From the NCBI RefSeq assembly GCF_030013595.1, contig NZ_CP122768.1: DNA of 64,000 nucleotides, one strand, 5' to 3'. This document shows, piece after piece, positions 7,672 through 36,934 of the stretch. Below the pieces are notes generated by a model, which saw only the letters and a list, made by a program, of their open reading frames with translations, searched no databases and was not told the origin of the DNA. The translations under genes and the position numbers were made by a program. Within the stretch, counting starts at the first letter, position 1; each line of letters starts with the position of its first letter. The stretch comes from Escherichia coli. Its GTDB lineage: Bacteria; Pseudomonadota; Gammaproteobacteria; Enterobacterales; Enterobacteriaceae.

Positions 7672-7707
7672 GCCCGCCAGGTAAGCACACCTGGCGGGCT
7701 TTTTTAT
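7672..7707 (+). terminator. Rho-independent terminator after citT
   Basis: GC-rich inverted repeat cccgccagg / cctggcggg with a 9-nt loop, followed by a T-run (cttttttat). Confidence 0.75.
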
Positions 7708-28864: not shown

Positions 28865-28890
28865 GATAACGATAATTAATTTCATTATCA
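28865..28890. promoter_or_regulatory. Fur box in the divergent entS / fepD promoter region
   Basis: gataacgataattaatttcattatca. Confidence 0.7.
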
Positions 28891-30895: not shown

Positions 30896-31707
30896 CCGAA
30901 TCAGTAGCCCGTTTGCGTGGCGAACAGTTAACCCTCGGATATGGCAAATATACCGTTGCGGAAAATCTGACTGTAGAAATACCTGATGGTCACTTCACGG
31001 CAATTATCGGGCCAAATGGCTGCGGTAAATCCACGTTACTGCGTACCTTAAGCCGCCTGATGACGCCTGCTCACGGGCATGTCTGGCTGGATGGTGAGCA
31101 CATTCAACATTACGCCAGTAAAGAGGTTGCACGCCGGATTGGCCTGTTGGCGCAAAATGCCACCACGCCGGGCGATATCACCGTGCAGGAGCTGGTGGCG
31201 CGTGGACGTTACCCACATCAACCGCTGTTTACCCGCTGGCGGAAAGAAGATGAAGAGGCAGTCACAAAAGCGATGCAGGCCACGGGAATAACTCATCTGG
31301 CAGATCAAAGCGTGGATACCCTTTCTGGCGGACAACGCCAGCGAGCGTGGATCGCGATGGTGCTGGCCCAGGAAACGGCAATTATGCTGCTCGACGAACC
31401 CACGACCTGGCTGGATATCAGTCATCAGATTGATCTACTGGAACTGCTAAGCGAACTGAACCGCGAGAAAGGCTATACCCTGGCGGCAGTGCTGCACGAT
31501 CTTAATCAGGCCTGTCGTTACGCCAGTCATTTGATTGCATTGCGGGAAGGGAAAATTGTTGCTCAGGGAGCGCCGAAGGAGATTGTCACTGCTGAATTGA
31601 TCGAGCGCATTTATGGTCTGCGCTGCATGATTATTGACGATCCGGTAGCCGGAACGCCGCTTGTGGTGCCGCTCGGACGAACGGCACCTTCAACTGCCAA
31701 GATTTAA
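30892..31707 (+). CDS. fepC: Ferric enterobactin ABC transporter ATPase
   Basis: ORF 30751-31707; start at MTESVARLRGEQLTLGY... gives 271 aa; Walker A GPNGCGKST; ATGA overlap with fepG. Confidence 0.9.
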   Translation: MTESVARLRGEQLTLGYGKYTVAENLTVEIPDGHFTAIIGPNGCGKSTLLRTLSRLMTPAHGHVWLDGEHIQHYASKEVARRIGLLAQNATTPGDITVQELVARGRYPHQPLFTRWRKEDEEAVTKAMQATGITHLADQSVDTLSGGQRQRAWIAMVLAQETAIMLLDEPTTWLDISHQIDLLELLSELNREKGYTLAAVLHDLNQACRYASHLIALREGKIVAQGAPKEIVTAELIERIYGLRCMIIDDPVAGTPLVVPLGRTAPSTAKI

Positions 31708-32837
31708 ACTAAGTGCTCTTCCACCACGGCATCCTGTTTTCTGGATGCCATCGCATGGCGCAACAGCACGCCACCACAAGCCACCATCCCGCCGATCATC
31801 GCAGAAAGGATCACAATAATCGCCTTACCCGGACCGTCTTTTTTCACTGGCAATGACGGGCTTAACTGATATTTAAACGGCGTAAAATTCACATCGTTGA
31901 TATTTGCTTTTGTTAGCTGCTCAACAAGATACTGACGATTACGTAATTCACCGTTCAGTTCCGCAACGTCAGTAACCGCTTTTTCAATTTCCAGTTTGCG
32001 TTCAATACCGTCTGCGCCGAGAGAAATAGAGAAATCGGGGTCATCTTTAACGGCCTGACCATTACTGTAAACGGGCTTTTTAATTCCTGCCGCGTTAGCA
32101 ATGTCGAGTGAATAATTGAGGCGCTGAATGTTTGCATCAAGTTGATTTTTCGTTTTAATGCGGTCCTGAGCCAGTTTTTCTTTTTCAAACTGGGTTTTGA
32201 TCTCCAGTTTATTACGGACGTTTTCTATCGACTCTTTCACCACCAACGCAGAGATATAATCGATATACCCGCTCAAAACGGTCTGCGCCTCTTCACTGGT
32301 TGGCGCGGTAAAACTTAGCGTCCAGGAGGTATACAGTGACGGTTCATCTTTTTTCTTACTGGCATTGTCATCAACCGCTTTCATTTTTTCGCTCAATGCG
32401 ACAATTGCGCGATGCAAATCCAGTTCGTCGATTTTCGCCTCTTTTAATTGGTCCATCACATAAGGTGTTGAGCGCAGGTACTCTTCCAGCAAGCTAACTG
32501 ACTGAAACTTCTTGATAAACAGGTTAAATGCTTCTGTACGATCAATTTTGATATCCAGATCCAGCACACGAAGCTTAGTGAATGTTTTCTCAAGCGCCTG
32601 CCACTGAACAGGTTCTGGAGGCGTGACAACCGCCGCGCTGGTCCATTTTTGCGGCAGGATGAAAGAGATCAGTAAACCTGCGCAGGCAAACGCAAAAACG
32701 ACCGCCATGACCGTTTTTTTGGCCCGCCATAAAACTTCAATTAGATTAAGTAAATCAATTTCATTATTACTGGGCGACGCCAGAGGATACTCGGGAAAAT
32801 GAGCGTCACTTCCCTGTTTAATATTCAGTGATGACAT
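31704..32837 (-). CDS. fepE: Polysaccharide co-polymerase-like protein FepE
   Basis: 377-aa ORF MSSLNIKQGSDAHFPEYPLASPSNNEIDLLNLIEVLWRAKK... Confidence 0.85.
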   Translation of the reverse strand: MSSLNIKQGSDAHFPEYPLASPSNNEIDLLNLIEVLWRAKKTVMAVVFAFACAGLLISFILPQKWTSAAVVTPPEPVQWQALEKTFTKLRVLDLDIKIDRTEAFNLFIKKFQSVSLLEEYLRSTPYVMDQLKEAKIDELDLHRAIVALSEKMKAVDDNASKKKDEPSLYTSWTLSFTAPTSEEAQTVLSGYIDYISALVVKESIENVRNKLEIKTQFEKEKLAQDRIKTKNQLDANIQRLNYSLDIANAAGIKKPVYSNGQAVKDDPDFSISLGADGIERKLEIEKAVTDVAELNGELRNRQYLVEQLTKANINDVNFTPFKYQLSPSLPVKKDGPGKAIIVILSAMIGGMVACGGVLLRHAMASRKQDAVVEEHLV

Positions 32838-33052
32838 GGGGTATAACCTGAAAATGAGTCCAATAGGGGGAAATCTCCACGGCGCTCACTTTACCAGTTG
32901 GTGAGAATTATCCGAAGCTGAAGTTTGTAAATTCCTTCCACTGAATGCAACATTCACTCTATTTAAGAGAAATATCCACCAAACTTATAAATTAAATAAA
33001 TGATAAACCCATAATTATTTCCTGTAATTATGGGTTTATCGATAATATTAAT

Positions 33053-36000
33053 TTACCTGTTTAGCGTAGCGCGAATAATCGGCCCAATTTTTTCAAACGC
33101 CCCTGGAGAGATAATATCCACATGCGCACAATCCTGACGATAGATATCCAGCTCCGCAATCCACGGCGACCAGGCGCGTTCGGGACTCATACCTTGCTGA
33201 AGCGTGCGTTCAGCAACAAACAGCGTCGCTTTACCGTCAAACGGTACGCTATGAGCAGTCGTCAGCAGGCGCACAGCATCAGCGTAGTTGCCTTCAATGG
33301 TGGTAAACAACTCCGTTGAAGTACTTCCCTGCTGTGCCGCCAGGAAGGCCTCGCGCTCGCGGTTAATCTCCGCCAGCACTTCCGGATCCAGACCATTAGC
33401 TTCTTTTTCCTGCCAGTTTTGCGTTTCTGGCGGCCAGGTATCCAGCAAGCCAAGAAATGCCACCTGTTCGCCACGGGCACGCAGTCGCGCCGCAATGCCC
33501 TGCGCCAGCGTACCGCCAAGTGAATAACCCAGCAGGTAATATGGGCCGTGCGGTTGTTGTTCAAGTAACGTTGCCAGATGCGCTTCGCAGACTTCATCCA
33601 GATTTGCCGCCGTCTGCATGGGGCCACTGGGGCGCGGCGACTGAATGCCGATAATCGACCATTGTGGATCGAGATAACGCGAGAGCACGCTGAACTGCCA
33701 GGCAAAACCGGAGGCCGGATGGAAACAAAACAGCGTCGGGCCATTACCTTCACGCAACGGCAGAATGGTTTCGAATCCCATGCGCCGGGAGCTGTCTTCT
33801 TCCCCATCAATAATCGTTGCCAGTTTAGCGACGGTTGACGCAACCATCACCTGCCCCGGCGTCACCTGACGGGCAAACTGCCGACTTAACTGCGCTGCCA
33901 GTTTCATTGCCAGTAGTGAATGACCGCCAAGCGCGAAGAAATCAGCATCGGCATCCTGCACGTCACAACCCAGCAACGACGAGAATGCCGCGGCGATAAT
34001 CGTTTCACTGCCCGCTTTCGGCGTACGCCCCGGTGCTTGTGCCTTCAGTTCAGGCAACGGTAAGGCTTTGCGATCCAGCTTGCCGTTGGCGCTAAGCGGC
34101 AACTGCGGAAGTTGCAGCAGAACCACGGGCACCATATGCGGTGGCAATGTTTCGCGCAACTGCGCCTGCAATGCAGTGGTATCCAGCGGCAGGCCTGATT
34201 GCGACACCAGATACCCAACCAACTGACGCGCATCGCCTCCCGTTGCGGCAGCCTGGTTAATGACGCAGGCGTGGGTCACGGCCTGTTCAACGTCCGGCAG
34301 CGCCTGCATCACGCGATCGATTTCGCCCAGTTCGATACGCTGCCCGCGAATTTTTAGCTGATCGTCACTGCGCCCGAGGTACTCCACCGCGCCGTTATCC
34401 AGCCAGCGGGCAACGTCTCCGGTACGGTACATCCGTTCACCAGGGGCAAAAGGATCGGCAATAAAGCGACTGGCGGTCAGATCGGGTCGTCCAAGATACC
34501 CCTGCGCCAGTTGAATACCGGTGAGATAGAGATCACCTGCCACACCCGGCGGCACCGGATGCATCATCGCATCAAGAATACGCAGGCCCGTATTCCACAC
34601 CGGATAACCAATCGGCACACTGCTGCCGCGCACCTGTGCCAGTTCCTCGCCAAAAGCCGGATACCAGCTGACATCTACCGCCGCTTCCGTCGGGCCATAT
34701 AGATTATGCAACGGCACGCTGGTTAACTGTTGCCATTCGCGGCATAAATCAGCGGGTAAGGCCTCACCACTACAGAAAACCTGTTTCAACGTCGCGCAAT
34801 TCTGACGAGCGGTTTGCGGAGTCAGCGGTGCAACAAATGCCGCCAGCATCGACGGCACAAAGTGCGTGGTCGTTACGCCATATTCGGCAAAGAATTGCTG
34901 CATAGCGAGCGGGTCGCGGTGCGCTTCCGGTTCAGCCATCACCAGTTTAGCCCCGGCAATAAACGGCCAGAAAAACTCCCACACCGAGACATCAAAACTG
35001 CACGGCGTTTTTTGGGCAACGATATCATCGCCTGTAAGCGGGTAGTGGTTTTGCATCCAAAGCAAGCGGTTAACGATAGCCGTCTGCCCGACCATTACCC
35101 CTTTTGGTCTGCCGGTGGAACCGGAGGTAAAGATGATATAAGCCGTGTGGTGCGGTTGTGAAAGTTGCAGCGGCGCACTGCCCTGCGGTGTAAGCGGGGC
35201 GTTATAGCAAAGGCTGGTTAAATCTGGAACATCGGCAAAGCGCGGCAGTTGATCGTCGGTGGTGATTAACAGCGACGGACGCGCATCTTCCAGCATCATT
35301 TTCAGGCGATCGTCCGGATAGCCGGTATCCAGCGGTAACCAGGCCGCACCTGTTTCAACAATCGCATGTAGTGCCAGAGTCAAAAAGACCGAGCGCGGTA
35401 GCGCCACCGCCACGCTGTCGCCTGGTTTAACGCCGCGCTCACGCAGCAGATTCGCCAGCGCCACCACCTGCTCGCGCATTTCCCGATAGCTGAACAGATA
35501 ACGCGCATCTGCCAGCGCCGGAGCATCCGGTGTTTTTGCCGCTTGTTCTGCCACCAGCGCGCTCAGCGTGGTTTCTGGAATCTCAACCTGAGTGGCGTTG
35601 ATCTGCGCCAGCTGCACATATTCACCTGGCAGCATAATATCGACATCGCCGCACAACAGCGCCGGATCCGCGGCGAACTGGGCAATCAGCATTTTCAGGC
35701 GTTCAGCATGTTGAATTAACGTTGGCTCATCGTAACGCTGTTTATTGGCGAGGATCTCAATACTCAAATCACCGTGTTCATCCGGGAACAGGGCCAGTTC
35801 AAGGTCATTAACCGGACCGGTTGCCAGGGTATGGGTTTGCGTCTGAACACCAGGAATATCCAGTTGGTAATCAAATACCTTGATATTGAGTACCGGACCG
35901 AACAGCGGTTCCTCTCCTGCCGCTCGCCCGCTGTCACGGACAATTTGTTCGGCATCGTAACGTTGATGGCGGCGCATTTTTTTCAGTTGTGCTGCCAGTC

Positions 36001-36934
36001 GGGTTGCCAGTTCAGGCAGCGTTTCTTGCTCCGCAATATGAATACCCAGCGGCAAAACGTTGAGCACGGGTCCGGTAGCCGTCAGCGCCGCCGAGCCCAG
36101 TCGACGCATAAAGATAAATCCGGCGGCGTAGTCCATGCGATTGCACAATCGCCCCAGCCATAAGGCCGTCAGCGCAAGGGCTAAATCGGTACGCTGCACA
36201 CCTGAAAGTTGCGTAGCCAGCTGGCGGAATTCCCCGTCGGTAAATTCCAGTTTCAGGCGCAAAATATCTGCCGAAGCGCTGCGCCCCGGTAAAGGTGCCG
36301 GAGAAAGTGACGCGGGCGGCGGCAGTTGACGACGCTGTTCCGCCCAGAATGCCGCATCACGCTGCCAGGCTTCGCTTTCGCGGTATTGCTGGTACTCCTC
36401 CACTACATCAGCGAAAGGCGTAAACGGCGAAGCAGGCGTTGGTTCGCCACGCAGCCATGCGCAGTAAATATTGGCGATCTGGCGAGTAATGGCCGGGAAA
36501 CTGAAGCCATCGACCAGCAAATGGTGATAACGCTGATACCAGTACCAGCGGTTATCCGCCACCTGATTGAGCTGATGAAAGACCAGCGGTTTGCCGCTGT
36601 CGGCACGTAGATTTTGCTGTAAATCCGCCTGCATTAATGCCTGCGCAGTACCGTGCGGATCAATGTTGGTTCGCAGGTCGATAATTTCTGGTAGTTCAAA
36701 CGTCAGCGCATCATCGACCCATTGCCAGACTTCGCCGTTATCTTCCGTAAAACGCATCCGCAGCGTATCTGCTTGCGCTAATCCGGCAACCACCGCGCGG
36801 GCCAGTAATGGCGCATCAACCTCTCCGGTTAACTCAACGTAATGCGCCACGCTCCAGGCGGAGGGTAAATCCGACAGTTTTTCTGCCATCCAGATGCCGG
36901 GCTGTGCGGCGACCAATGGTAAATGCTGGCTCAT
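33053..36934 (-). CDS. entF: Enterobactin synthase component F (NRPS: C-A-PCP-TE, serine-activating)
   Basis: ORF 33053-37072; start at MSQHLPLVAAQPGIWMAEK... gives 1293 aa; adenylation (FTSGSTGRPKG), PCP (GGHSLLAMK) and thioesterase (GYSLGG) motifs. Confidence 0.9.
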   Translation of the reverse strand: MSQHLPLVAAQPGIWMAEKLSDLPSAWSVAHYVELTGEVDAPLLARAVVAGLAQADTLRMRFTEDNGEVWQWVDDALTFELPEIIDLRTNIDPHGTAQALMQADLQQNLRADSGKPLVFHQLNQVADNRWYWYQRYHHLLVDGFSFPAITRQIANIYCAWLRGEPTPASPFTPFADVVEEYQQYRESEAWQRDAAFWAEQRRQLPPPASLSPAPLPGRSASADILRLKLEFTDGEFRQLATQLSGVQRTDLALALTALWLGRLCNRMDYAAGFIFMRRLGSAALTATGPVLNVLPLGIHIAEQETLPELATRLAAQLKKMRRHQRYDAEQIVRDSGRAAGEEPLFGPVLNIKVFDYQLDIPGVQTQTHTLATGPVNDLELALFPDEHGDLSIEILANKQRYDEPTLIQHAERLKMLIAQFAADPALLCGDVDIMLPGEYVQLAQINATQVEIPETTLSALVAEQAAKTPDAPALADARYLFSYREMREQVVALANLLRERGVKPGDSVAVALPRSVFLTLALHAIVETGAAWLPLDTGYPDDRLKMMLEDARPSLLITTDDQLPRFADVPDLTSLCYNAPLTPQGSAPLQLSQPHHTAYIIFTSGSTGRPKGVMVGQTAIVNRLLWMQNHYPLTGDDIVAQKTPCSFDVSVWEFFWPFIAGAKLVMAEPEAHRDPLAMQQFFAEYGVTTTHFVPSMLAAFVAPLTPQTARQNCATLKQVFCSGEALPADLCREWQQLTSVPLHNLYGPTEAAVDVSWYPAFGEELAQVRGSSVPIGYPVWNTGLRILDAMMHPVPPGVAGDLYLTGIQLAQGYLGRPDLTASRFIADPFAPGERMYRTGDVARWLDNGAVEYLGRSDDQLKIRGQRIELGEIDRVMQALPDVEQAVTHACVINQAAATGGDARQLVGYLVSQSGLPLDTTALQAQLRETLPPHMVPVVLLQLPQLPLSANGKLDRKALPLPELKAQAPGRTPKAGSETIIAAAFSSLLGCDVQDADADFFALGGHSLLAMKLAAQLSRQFARQVTPGQVMVASTVAKLATIIDGEEDSSRRMGFETILPLREGNGPTLFCFHPASGFAWQFSVLSRYLDPQWSIIGIQSPRPSGPMQTAANLDEVCEAHLATLLEQQPHGPYYLLGYSLGGTLAQGIAARLRARGEQVAFLGLLDTWPPETQNWQEKEANGLDPEVLAEINREREAFLAAQQGSTSTELFTTIEGNYADAVRLLTTAHSVPFDGKATLFVAERTLQQGMSPERAWSPWIAELDIYRQDCAHVDIISPGAFEKIGPIIRATLNR

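What the first reader, a model, noticed from the sequence alone, without database searches (positions are those of the whole stretch)
33005..33038. Perfect palindrome between entF and fepE
aaacccataatta ... taattatgggttt is a 13-bp-arm inverted repeat in an AT-rich spacer. It could be an intra-operon attenuator or terminator (or RNase processing site) separating entF from fepE, or a protein binding site; the neighbouring sequence ataaatgataaacc also looks Fur-box-like.
Basis: seen in the sequence. Interest (0 to 1): 0.2.

Follow-up and report, generated by a model that had tools for sequence, protein, structure and literature searches.

The report
Transcription terminator after entF gene
The palindrome is real and is most likely an ordinary hairpin-plus-U-tract transcription terminator that ends the iron-regulated fes-ybdZ-entF transcript, so that the next gene, fepE (an O-antigen length regulator), runs mainly from its own promoter.

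Summary
The perfect inverted repeat has 16-bp arms (33002-33017 / 33025-33040, 7-nt loop). It is the only perfect inverted repeat of 13 bp or more in the 64-kb window; none appeared in 60 shuffles.

The window is the E. coli enterobactin cluster in reverse orientation. entF and fepE are both on the minus strand. On that strand the hairpin starts 12 nt after the entF stop and is followed by AUUUAUUUAAUUUAU. K-12 has a 13-bp stem followed by UUUUUUAUUUGUUU.

A hairpin with a T-rich tail sits at the same place in 23 of 24 entF-fepE spacers from Escherichia, Salmonella, Citrobacter and Intestinirhabdus. Eleven of 16 pairs show compensatory changes. Many G·U pairs exist only on the entF-sense strand. 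Loop length varies from 3 to 11 nt. These points indicate an RNA hairpin, not a protein operator.

The published fepE promoter (RcsB box, extended -10, mapped Salmonella start site) lies about 90-120 nt downstream of the hairpin. In a published CFT073 fur mutant, entF rises 294-fold and fepE only 4.9-fold.

The Fur-box idea fails: the best match has 8 of 19 mismatches, against 3-4 for the true Fur boxes in the same window.

Verdict: an ordinary, somewhat leaky intrinsic terminator. Low interest.

The parts
33053..33055 (-). entF stop codon (TAA). The entF coding sequence is 33053-36934 on the minus strand.
   Evidence: ORF list. RefSeq entF annotation of near-identical E. coli genomes ends at the same position. 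tblastn with the EntF C-terminus.
33025..33040 (-). 5' arm of the terminator hairpin in the entF-sense RNA (GAUAAACCCAUAAUUA). The stem starts 12 nt after the entF stop codon.
   Evidence: The core 13 pairs are conserved with covariation.
33018..33024 (-). Hairpin loop (CAGGAAA in the RNA).
   Evidence: Loop sequence and length vary among orthologues, from 3 to 11 nt.
33002..33017 (-). 3' arm of the terminator hairpin (UAAUUAUGGGUUUAUC).
   Evidence: The C-G pairs at the stem base are the most conserved: column pair 18-40 is C-G in 23 of 23 sequences.
32985..33001 (-). U-rich tail after the stem (AUUUAUUUAAUUUAUAA). Counted from the GGG block it reads UUUAUCAUUUAUUU.
   Evidence: The terminator-like scan hit on the minus strand. 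T-rich tails of 5-9 T in 10 nt follow the stem in 22 orthologous spacers.
32971..32983 (-). Counterpart (TTTGGTGGATATT) of the published H-NS footprint TTTGCTGGTTATT in the EHEC fepE promoter region. It starts 19 nt past the 3' end of the hairpin.
   Evidence: PMC8669466. Match with 2 mismatches in the window. Exact footprint sequence at the same position in a 5.45-Mb cattle E. coli genome, strain 130.
32902..32915 (-). RcsB box TCGGATAATTCTCA of the fepE promoter, 78 nt upstream of the fepE ATG.
   Evidence: It fits the published consensus TN(G/A)GAN4TC(T/C)NA. It sits where the Salmonella box bound by RcsB in EMSA and footprinting sits, at -79 from the ATG (PMC7913699). A match to this consensus 74-79 nt upstream of the fepE ATG in 20 of 25 spacers (one more at -145).
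32888..32896 (-). Inferred extended -10 element of the fepE promoter (TGGTAAAGT). The inferred transcription start is near 32880, giving a 5' UTR of about 43 nt.
   Evidence: A conserved block CTG-TA-A-T follows the RcsB box in all genera. The position is inferred from the Salmonella start site, which lies 36 nt downstream of the box start and 43 nt upstream of the ATG (PMC7913699). It has not been mapped in this strain.
31704..32837 (-). fepE / wzz(fepE), the LPS O-antigen chain-length regulator and the gene downstream of the terminator.
   Evidence: ORF list. RefSeq annotation.

Best explanation
The palindrome encodes a Rho-independent (intrinsic) transcription terminator at the 3' end of entF. 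RNA polymerase transcribing the Fur-repressed fes-ybdZ-entF unit (minus strand of the window) passes the entF stop codon. It then makes a hairpin: 16 bp in this strain, with a conserved 13-bp core and a CCC/GGG block at its base. A U-rich tract follows, and most transcripts end there. A minority read through into fepE. fepE is otherwise transcribed from its own promoter, which is controlled by RcsB and H-NS and lies about 90-120 nt downstream of the hairpin. The element therefore insulates an O-antigen chain-length gene from the several-hundred-fold iron-starvation induction of the enterobactin genes.

Shown here: the anatomy, the strand, conservation and covariation, and the position relative to the published promoter. 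Taken from the literature: the drop in Fur-dependent induction across the spacer. Inferred: that transcript 3' ends actually form at the U-tract.
For: 1. Anatomy on the entF-sense strand. The stem starts 12 nt after the stop codon and has 16 perfect pairs, 4 of them G-C. Hairpin energy is -18.2 kcal/mol alone and -24.4 kcal/mol in an 86-nt context, with z = -6.4. It is followed by AUUUAUUUAA. The consensus scan flags it as terminator-like on the minus strand only.

2. The K-12 allele has the textbook form: AAACCCAUAAUUA-loop-UAAUUAUGGGUUU followed by UUUAUUUGUUUG.

3. A scan of one genome per species found entF next to fepE in 20 loci from Escherichia, Citrobacter, Salmonella and Intestinirhabdus. 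Of 24 distinct orthologous spacers, 23 have a hairpin of 10-18 pairs starting 12-39 nt after the entF stop. Each is followed by a T-rich run.

4. Covariation on the 23-sequence alignment. 90% of cells are paired, against 36-52% when the 3' partners are slid by 1-3 columns. Eleven of 16 pairs have changes on both sides. The covariation score is 0.435 against 0.195 in shuffles, reached by 0 of 500 shuffles. RNAalifold independently predicts the 13-bp core, with 9 compensatory pairs.

5. Within E. coli there is one compensatory double change (AUUAACCC / GGGUUAAU in an O113:H21 strain). Two single changes give G·U pairs. The divergent spacer allele found in about 517 genomes keeps the hairpin with two compensated pairs.

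6. Strand. The core has 27 G·U cells and only 4 A·C cells. In most Citrobacter lineages (10 of 13 spacers) the sense hairpin is 5-14 kcal/mol more stable than its complement. T-rich tails occur only on the sense side.

7. The hairpin persists in the minimum-energy and centroid folds of a 261-nt context. No competing structure appears.

8. The fepE promoter lies downstream of the hairpin. An RcsB box and an extended -10 element are conserved across genera. The box sits at the position validated in Salmonella by a mapped start site, EMSA and footprinting (PMC7913699). fepE promoter fusions are active on their own in EHEC and E. coli (PMC8669466; PMC11619404). The same promoter module precedes fepE homologues that are not next to entF in 32 of 52 loci.

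9. Expression. In CFT073, fur-/wt RNA-seq fold changes are fes 388, ybdZ 158, entF 294 and fepE 4.9 (PMC7157518, Table S1). In an ExPEC strain in serum, fes, ybdZ and entF are induced at least 2-fold and fepE is not (PMC4145685).
Against: No transcript 3'-end map was available. The supplements of one E. coli Term-seq study held no entF or fepE entry, probably because entF is repressed in iron-replete media.

The stem is AT-rich, with only 3-4 G-C pairs.

In this strain the U-tract is interrupted: UUUAUCAU follows the GGG block, where K-12 has UUUUUUAU. Efficiency here may therefore be lower than in K-12.

fepE still rises 4.9-fold in the CFT073 fur mutant, and databases list fes-ybdZ-entF-fepE as one operon. 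Termination is thus incomplete.

Fold changes are not absolute transcript levels. A high basal fepE level from its own promoter would also shrink the ratio.

The orthologous hairpins were first located by a hairpin scan in each spacer. That is a mild selection bias, although the alignment used for covariation was made on sequence alone.
Confidence: 0.85

Rival explanations
1. It is a regulated attenuator. The hairpin terminates conditionally, and read-through into fepE is tuned by a signal such as iron status, translation of the entF 3' end, or a factor. This would couple O-antigen chain length to iron starvation.
For: Termination is evidently incomplete: fepE rises 4.9-fold in the CFT073 fur mutant. 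The stem starts only 12-15 nt after the entF stop codon in Escherichia, so a terminating ribosome could in principle interfere; this is inference. E. coli alleles differ in the U-tract.
Against: No alternative (anti-terminator) pairing appears in the 261-nt fold. Nothing is conserved upstream of the stem besides the entF coding sequence. The distance from stop codon to stem varies from 12 to 39 nt among genera, which argues against a conserved ribosome-coupled mechanism. Ordinary leaky termination explains the data.
Confidence: 0.07
2. It is a palindromic DNA operator bound by a dimeric regulator, for example Fur or a regulator of the fepE promoter.
For: It is a perfect DNA palindrome in an AT-rich regulatory spacer that binds H-NS and RcsB nearby.
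Against: Spacing between the half-sites varies from 3 to 11 nt across orthologues. The arms change by compensatory and G·U-type substitutions, which preserve RNA pairing but not a DNA recognition sequence. The best Fur-consensus match in the spacer has 8 of 19 mismatches, against 3-4 for the real Fur boxes in the window. The CFT073 Fur ChIP-seq table lists a peak summit for the fes-ybdZ-entF-fepE operon only on the fes row; it is the same value as on the fepA row. The published H-NS and RcsB sites lie downstream of the hairpin, not on it.
Confidence: 0.03
3. It is an RNA processing or stability element: an RNase III or RNase E site, or a 3' stabilising hairpin of a processed entF mRNA. The 3' end would be made by cleavage and trimming, not by termination.
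For: It is a long perfect duplex, 16 bp in this strain. A stable 3' hairpin also protects mRNA from exonucleases, and any intrinsic terminator does this as a side effect.
Against: The duplex is only 13 bp in most E. coli and 10-18 bp in other genera. That is short for RNase III, which usually needs about two helical turns; this figure is from general knowledge, not tested here. The conserved T-rich run immediately 3' of the stem on the sense strand is the signature of termination and is not needed for processing.
Confidence: 0.04
4. It is a bidirectional terminator that also stops plus-strand transcription, for example fepDGC transcripts that run antisense through fepE.
For: The perfect palindrome folds equally well on the plus strand in E. 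coli, at -24.9 kcal/mol. fepC and fepE converge with a 4-bp overlap, which leaves no room for a terminator between them.
Against: On the plus strand the stem is followed by AUCGAUAAUA, with 3 U in 10 nt, and the scan reports no plus-strand hit. In Citrobacter the plus-strand version of the hairpin is 5-14 kcal/mol weaker. The antisense-side tails contain only 0-4 T.
Confidence: 0.03

Closest known systems
Canonical Rho-independent (intrinsic) terminators of Enterobacteriaceae
   Same: A hairpin with G-C pairs at its base is followed directly by a U-tract on the transcribed strand. It lies a few nucleotides after a stop codon. An A-rich stretch upstream can extend the stem by pairing with the U-tract. 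The element is conserved by compensatory change rather than by sequence.
   Different: The stem is unusually AT-rich (3-4 G-C pairs out of 13-16) and long. In this strain the U-tract is interrupted (UUUAUCAUUUAUUU). No 3'-end or in vitro termination data were available to me.
Leaky internal terminators that set unequal expression within annotated operons
   Same: The element lies inside a database-annotated operon (fes-ybdZ-entF-fepE) and separates genes whose induction differs about 60-fold. Some read-through remains.
   Different: The downstream gene has its own promoter and an unrelated function (O-antigen chain length, not enterobactin). In other genera it occurs away from entF with the same promoter module. 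The 'operon' is therefore better seen as two adjacent units.
Fur box (iron box, consensus GATAATGATAATCATTATC)
   Same: AT-rich, with scattered GATAA and ATAAT strings near the palindrome.
   Different: The best match is 11 of 19, at background level. The true Fur boxes in the same window match 15-16 of 19.

Membership tests
Intrinsic (Rho-independent) terminator | A stable stem-loop in the nascent RNA on the strand of the upstream gene | tested here: met
   16 perfect pairs. Energy is -18.2 kcal/mol for the hairpin alone and -24.4 kcal/mol in an 86-nt context, z = -6.4. It persists in a 261-nt context fold.
Intrinsic (Rho-independent) terminator | A U-rich tract immediately 3' of the stem | tested here: met
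   The tail is AUUUAUUUAA, with 6 U in 10 nt, and passes the scan's threshold. It is weaker than the K-12 tail UUUAUUUGUU, with 8 in 10. Orthologues have 5-9 T in 10 nt.
Intrinsic (Rho-independent) terminator | Position just downstream of a stop codon, in the same orientation | tested here: met
   The stem begins 12 nt after the entF TAA. The distance is 12-39 nt in orthologues.
Intrinsic (Rho-independent) terminator | Structure, not sequence, maintained in evolution | tested here: met
   Eleven of 16 pairs have compensatory changes, 90% of cells are paired, and 0 of 500 shuffles reach the covariation score. Slid controls pair at 36-52%. RNAalifold predicts the same core.
Intrinsic (Rho-independent) terminator | Transcript 3' ends at the U-tract in vivo, or factor-independent termination in vitro | not testable with these tools
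   No entF or fepE entries in the held supplements of an E. coli Term-seq study. Other candidate data sets had no held supplements. The only indirect support is published RNA-seq: entF 294-fold against fepE 4.9-fold in fur-/wt.
Fur box | A close match to the 19-bp consensus GATAATGATAATCATTATC | tested here: not met
   The best match in 32840-33060 has 8 of 19 mismatches; about 340 window positions do as well or better. The control Fur boxes at 28871 and 26422 have 3-4 mismatches.
Fur box | Fur occupancy in vivo | tested here: inconclusive
   The published CFT073 ChIP-seq table lists a peak summit for this operon only on the fes row, with the same value on the fepA row. The fepE row has none. 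The raw peak list was not examined.
Palindromic protein operator | Conserved half-site sequence and fixed spacing | tested here: not met
   The loop (spacer) ranges from 3 to 11 nt. Arm sequences diverge, with compensatory and G·U-type changes.
Repeated palindromic element (REP, MITE and similar) | Multiple copies per genome | tested here: not met
   The arm sequence occurs only at this site in the window. There is one place per genome in 1281 E. coli genomes. It sits at the orthologous position across genera.
RNase III substrate | A duplex of about two helical turns (about 20 bp) | tested here: not met
   16 bp here and 13 bp in most E. coli. The length requirement is from general knowledge. 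Cleavage itself is not testable here.

The most novel reading that the evidence does not exclude
The terminator's strength may differ between E. coli lineages. Three allele types were seen: the K-12 type UUUUUU tract, the UUUAUC tract with an extended 15-16-bp stem as in this window, and the divergent spacer in about 517 genomes. Such differences would set how much iron starvation (Fur derepression of fes-ybdZ-entF) spills over into fepE. The element would then be a tunable link between iron limitation in the host and very-long O-antigen chain production.
Probability: 0.1. Interest if true: 0.35.

Novelty: new member of a known kind. Interest (0 to 1): 0.12.

Why it matters
It matters little beyond annotation hygiene. 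Databases and many transcriptome papers list fes-ybdZ-entF-fepE as one Fur- and CRP-controlled operon. The terminator, together with the separately published fepE promoter, explains why fepE behaves differently from fes, ybdZ and entF in iron-limitation data sets. It also argues that fepE, a Wzz-type O-antigen length regulator, should be treated as its own transcription unit with only minor read-through. The kind of element is textbook. I found no paper in the searchable library that names this particular terminator, though it is probably present in genome-wide terminator prediction catalogues that I could not query.

Tried and rejected
1. Fur box. A consensus mismatch scan of the whole window, with the cluster's own Fur boxes as positive controls, put the spacer at background level.

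2. Known RNA families. An Rfam scan of 32600-33300 at E <= 10 gave only sub-threshold eukaryotic microRNA and snoRNA hairpin look-alikes, all far below their gathering scores.

3. Repeat or mobile element. The arm motif is single-copy in the window and in E. coli genomes.

4. Direct 3'-end evidence. The supplements of PMC7815308 contained no entF or fepE entries. PMC9023263, PMC4161252 and PMC12259150 had no supplements held as text. Literature searches for entF or fepE with 'terminator', 'rho-independent', 'cotranscribed' or 'read-through' found nothing relevant.

5. Overall sense-versus-antisense stability test. It was not significant across all 24 sequences (Wilcoxon p = 0.10), because the Escherichia and Salmonella stems are pure Watson-Crick palindromes. 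The asymmetry is large only in Citrobacter. The automated tail count in that same script was confounded by extended minimum-energy pairings, so I rely on the tail counts.

6. Citrobacter sp. MGH106 is the one spacer without a clean hairpin plus T-tail. It has a 347-nt spacer with an extra stretch that contains a different strong hairpin, and a decayed copy of the orthologous stem.

7. I did not test whether entF is still followed by a terminator in genera where fepE is elsewhere.

Full report
**What is there**

Positions 33005-33017 read AAACCCATAATTA, and 33025-33037 are the exact reverse complement. Perfect complementarity continues for three more pairs, giving 16-bp arms at 33002-33017 and 33025-33040 around a 7-nt loop. 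It is the only perfect inverted repeat with arms of 13 bp or more and a short loop in the whole 64-kb window. Sixty dinucleotide-preserving shuffles of the window produced none of 13 bp or more. As RNA it folds at -24.4 kcal/mol on the minus strand and -24.9 kcal/mol on the plus strand in an 86-nt context. The z-scores are about -6.5, and no shuffle folded as well.

**Context**

The 341 nt around the site match 5409 of 5426 complete E. coli genomes. In all of them the flanking genes are annotated as entF and wzz(fepE). In the window both genes are on the minus strand: entF at 33053-36934 and fepE at 31704-32837.

On that strand the order of features is as follows.

- The entF stop codon, TAA.
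- A 12-nt gap.
- The hairpin GAUAAACCCAUAAUUA-CAGGAAA-UAAUUAUGGGUUUAUC.
- The tail AUUUAUUUAAUUUAUAA.
- About 150 more nucleotides of AT-rich spacer, ending at the fepE ATG.

The consensus scan reports this as a terminator-like site on the minus strand and finds nothing on the plus strand.

**Variation within E. coli**

K-12 carries AAACCCAUAAUUA-CAGAAAA-UAAUUAUGGGUUU followed by UUUAUUUGUUUG. That is a 13-bp stem with an A-tract before it and a textbook U-tract after it. The window's version differs at the stem base: a leading G, and UUUAUC in place of UUUUUU. This lengthens the perfect duplex to 16 bp but interrupts the U-tract.

The window's version is rare. Its exact 72-nt stretch matches at 99% or more in 2 genomes, while the K-12 stretch does so in 1424. 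About 517 genomes carry a strongly diverged spacer, the Ecol_244 type. It still has a hairpin at the same place: AAAACCAUAAUC-loop-GAUUAUGGUUUU followed by UUUAUUC. Two of its pairs are changed on both sides relative to K-12.

A sample of other alleles showed further pairing-preserving changes.

- One has a compensatory double change: AUUAACCC / GGGUUAAU in an O113:H21 strain.
- Two have single changes that create G·U pairs on the entF-sense strand.

**Comparison across genera**

A scan of one genome per species with the FepE protein returned 77 loci. entF lies directly upstream of fepE in 20 of them, from Escherichia, Citrobacter, Salmonella and Intestinirhabdus. In Enterobacter, Lelliottia, Trabulsiella, Buttiauxella, Cedecea and others the fepE homologue lies elsewhere.

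Of 24 distinct entF-fepE spacers, 23 carry a hairpin of 10-18 pairs that begins 12-39 nt after the entF stop. Each is followed by a T-rich run. In S. enterica subsp. diarizonae I read the hairpin directly. The exception is Citrobacter sp. MGH106. Its spacer is enlarged, with a different strong hairpin and a decayed copy of the orthologous stem.

On a sequence-based alignment of the 23 hairpins, the covariation figures were as follows.

| Measure | Observed | Control |
|---|---|---|
| Cells forming standard pairs | 90% | 36-52% when the 3' partners are slid by 1-3 columns |
| Pairs changed on both sides | 11 of 16 | - |
| Covariation score | 0.435 | 0.195 in shuffles; 0 of 500 reach the observed value |

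RNAalifold predicts the same 13-bp core unaided. The C-G pairs at the stem base are the most conserved positions. Loop sequence and length (3-11 nt) are free to vary.

**Which strand, and RNA or DNA**

The core helix contains 27 G·U cells and only 4 A·C cells. G·U pairs become A·C mismatches on the other strand, so the structure is maintained for the entF-sense RNA. In most Citrobacter lineages (10 of 13 spacers) the sense hairpin is 5-14 kcal/mol more stable than its complement. The T-rich tail is present only on the sense side. Variable arm spacing and wobble-type substitutions are what an RNA hairpin tolerates and a dimeric DNA operator does not. The 261-nt fold that includes the entF 3' end keeps the hairpin and shows no competing structure.

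**The downstream promoter**

Published work on Salmonella places a mapped fepE start site 43 nt upstream of the ATG. An RcsB box, TCGGATAATTCTGA, lies 79 nt upstream of the ATG and is bound by phosphorylated RcsB in EMSA and DNase protection (PMC7913699). The window has TCGGATAATTCTCA at 32902-32915, 78 nt upstream of the ATG. It is followed by a conserved extended -10-like TGGTAAAGT at 32888-32896. This block is the best-conserved part of the spacer across all four genera. I infer a start near 32880.

In EHEC a fepE promoter-gfp fusion is active, and H-NS footprints on TTTGCTGGTTATT (PMC8669466). That sequence sits about 20 nt beyond the hairpin's 3' end in a cattle E. coli genome, strain 130. 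It corresponds to 32971-32983 in the window. An E. coli fepE promoter fusion also responds to SdiA (PMC11619404). The same box-plus-(-10) module precedes fepE homologues that are not next to entF in 32 of 52 loci. The hairpin is therefore outside the fepE transcript made from this promoter. It belongs to the entF 3' untranslated region.

**Expression data from the literature**

| Study | fes | ybdZ | entF | fepE |
|---|---|---|---|---|
| UPEC CFT073, RNA-seq fur-/wt fold change (PMC7157518, Table S1) | 388 | 158 | 294 | 4.9 |
| ExPEC O78 in heat-inactivated serum (PMC4145685) | induced at least 2-fold | induced at least 2-fold | induced at least 2-fold | not induced |
| K-12 pressure study, iron-acquisition table as shown in the retrieved passages (PMC6049941) | 5.8-fold | 3.5-fold | 13.7-fold | not seen |

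- In the CFT073 table, the Fur ChIP-seq summit for this operon is listed only on the fes row, with the same value on the fepA row.
- In the ExPEC study, fepE appears only in the complement-dependent gene set.

This pattern fits an efficient but leaky terminator plus an independent promoter. Fold changes are not absolute levels, so a high basal fepE level would also compress the ratio. These data are supportive rather than decisive.

**The Fur-box suggestion**

I scanned the whole window for the 19-bp Fur consensus, using the cluster's own Fur boxes as controls. The entS-fepD and fepB-entC boxes score 3-4 mismatches. The fes-fepA region scores 6. About 340 positions in the window score 8 or fewer. 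In 33% G+C DNA this is background.

**Other checks**

- Rfam gives only sub-threshold eukaryotic hairpin look-alikes.
- The arm motif is single-copy, so it is not a REP- or MITE-type repeat.
- No held Term-seq supplement lists entF or fepE.
- No paper in the searchable library names this terminator.

**Conclusion**

The palindrome is an ordinary intrinsic terminator at the end of the Fur-regulated fes-ybdZ-entF transcript (confidence about 0.85).

- **Shown here:** its anatomy, its strand, its conservation by covariation across four genera, and its position upstream of the fepE promoter.
- **From the literature:** the roughly 60-fold drop in Fur-dependent induction across the spacer, and the existence of the fepE promoter.
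- **Inferred:** that 3' ends actually form at the U-tract, and how efficient the interrupted U-tract of this strain's allele is.

The protein-site and Fur-box alternatives are not supported. The only mildly novel possibility left open is that allele differences in the terminator tune how much iron starvation spills over into O-antigen chain-length control.

Noticed in passing
window 32902-32915 (-); L001 (K-12) and L004 (strain 789), same position: The RcsB box of the fepE promoter is intact in the window (TCGGATAATTCTCA). In K-12 and in ExPEC strain 789 it reads TCGGATAATTATCA, which breaks the conserved TCT half-site. This may mean that RcsB control of fepE is lost in those lineages.
   Followed up: partly
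window 32838-33052; L002 1559-1804: About 517 of 5426 complete E. coli genomes carry a strongly diverged entF-fepE spacer, 246 nt against 215 nt (Ecol_244 type). Only three features stay recognisable: the terminator hairpin, the RcsB box and the last ~25 nt before the ATG. The flanking genes are about 94-95% identical at the protein level (tblastn). This looks like an old allelic replacement or a recombination patch.
   Followed up: partly
window 31704-31707: fepC (plus strand, ends 31707) and fepE (minus strand, ends 31704) converge and overlap by 4 bp. Neither has room for a terminator of its own, so fepDGC transcripts must run antisense into fepE, and fepE transcripts into fepC, unless Rho stops them.
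   Followed up: no
window 32744-32768: The best Fur-consensus matches near the finding (6 of 19 mismatches, two overlapping sites) lie inside the 5' part of the fepE coding sequence, not in the spacer. They are probably chance matches in AT-rich coding DNA.
   Followed up: no
window 7672-7699 (+): This is the second-longest perfect inverted repeat in the window: GCCCGCCAGGT-AAGCAC-ACCTGGCGGGC followed by TTTTTTATGA. It is a G+C-rich canonical terminator-like site on the plus strand.
   Followed up: partly
L013 (Citrobacter sp. MGH106), spacer between the entF stop and fepE (about 1154-1500): The spacer is enlarged to 347 nt. An extra stretch carries a strong 15-bp hairpin (ACCCCAGTCACTTAT-CAG-GTAAGTGACTGGGGT) without a T-tail, and the orthologous terminator stem has decayed. 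It may be an inserted small element.
   Followed up: no
L022-L081 (fepE homologues not next to entF): fepE is linked to entF only in Escherichia, Citrobacter, Salmonella and Intestinirhabdus. In Enterobacter, Lelliottia, Trabulsiella, Pseudocitrobacter and others it lies elsewhere. In 32 of 52 such loci it keeps the same RcsB-box and -10 promoter module.
   Followed up: partly
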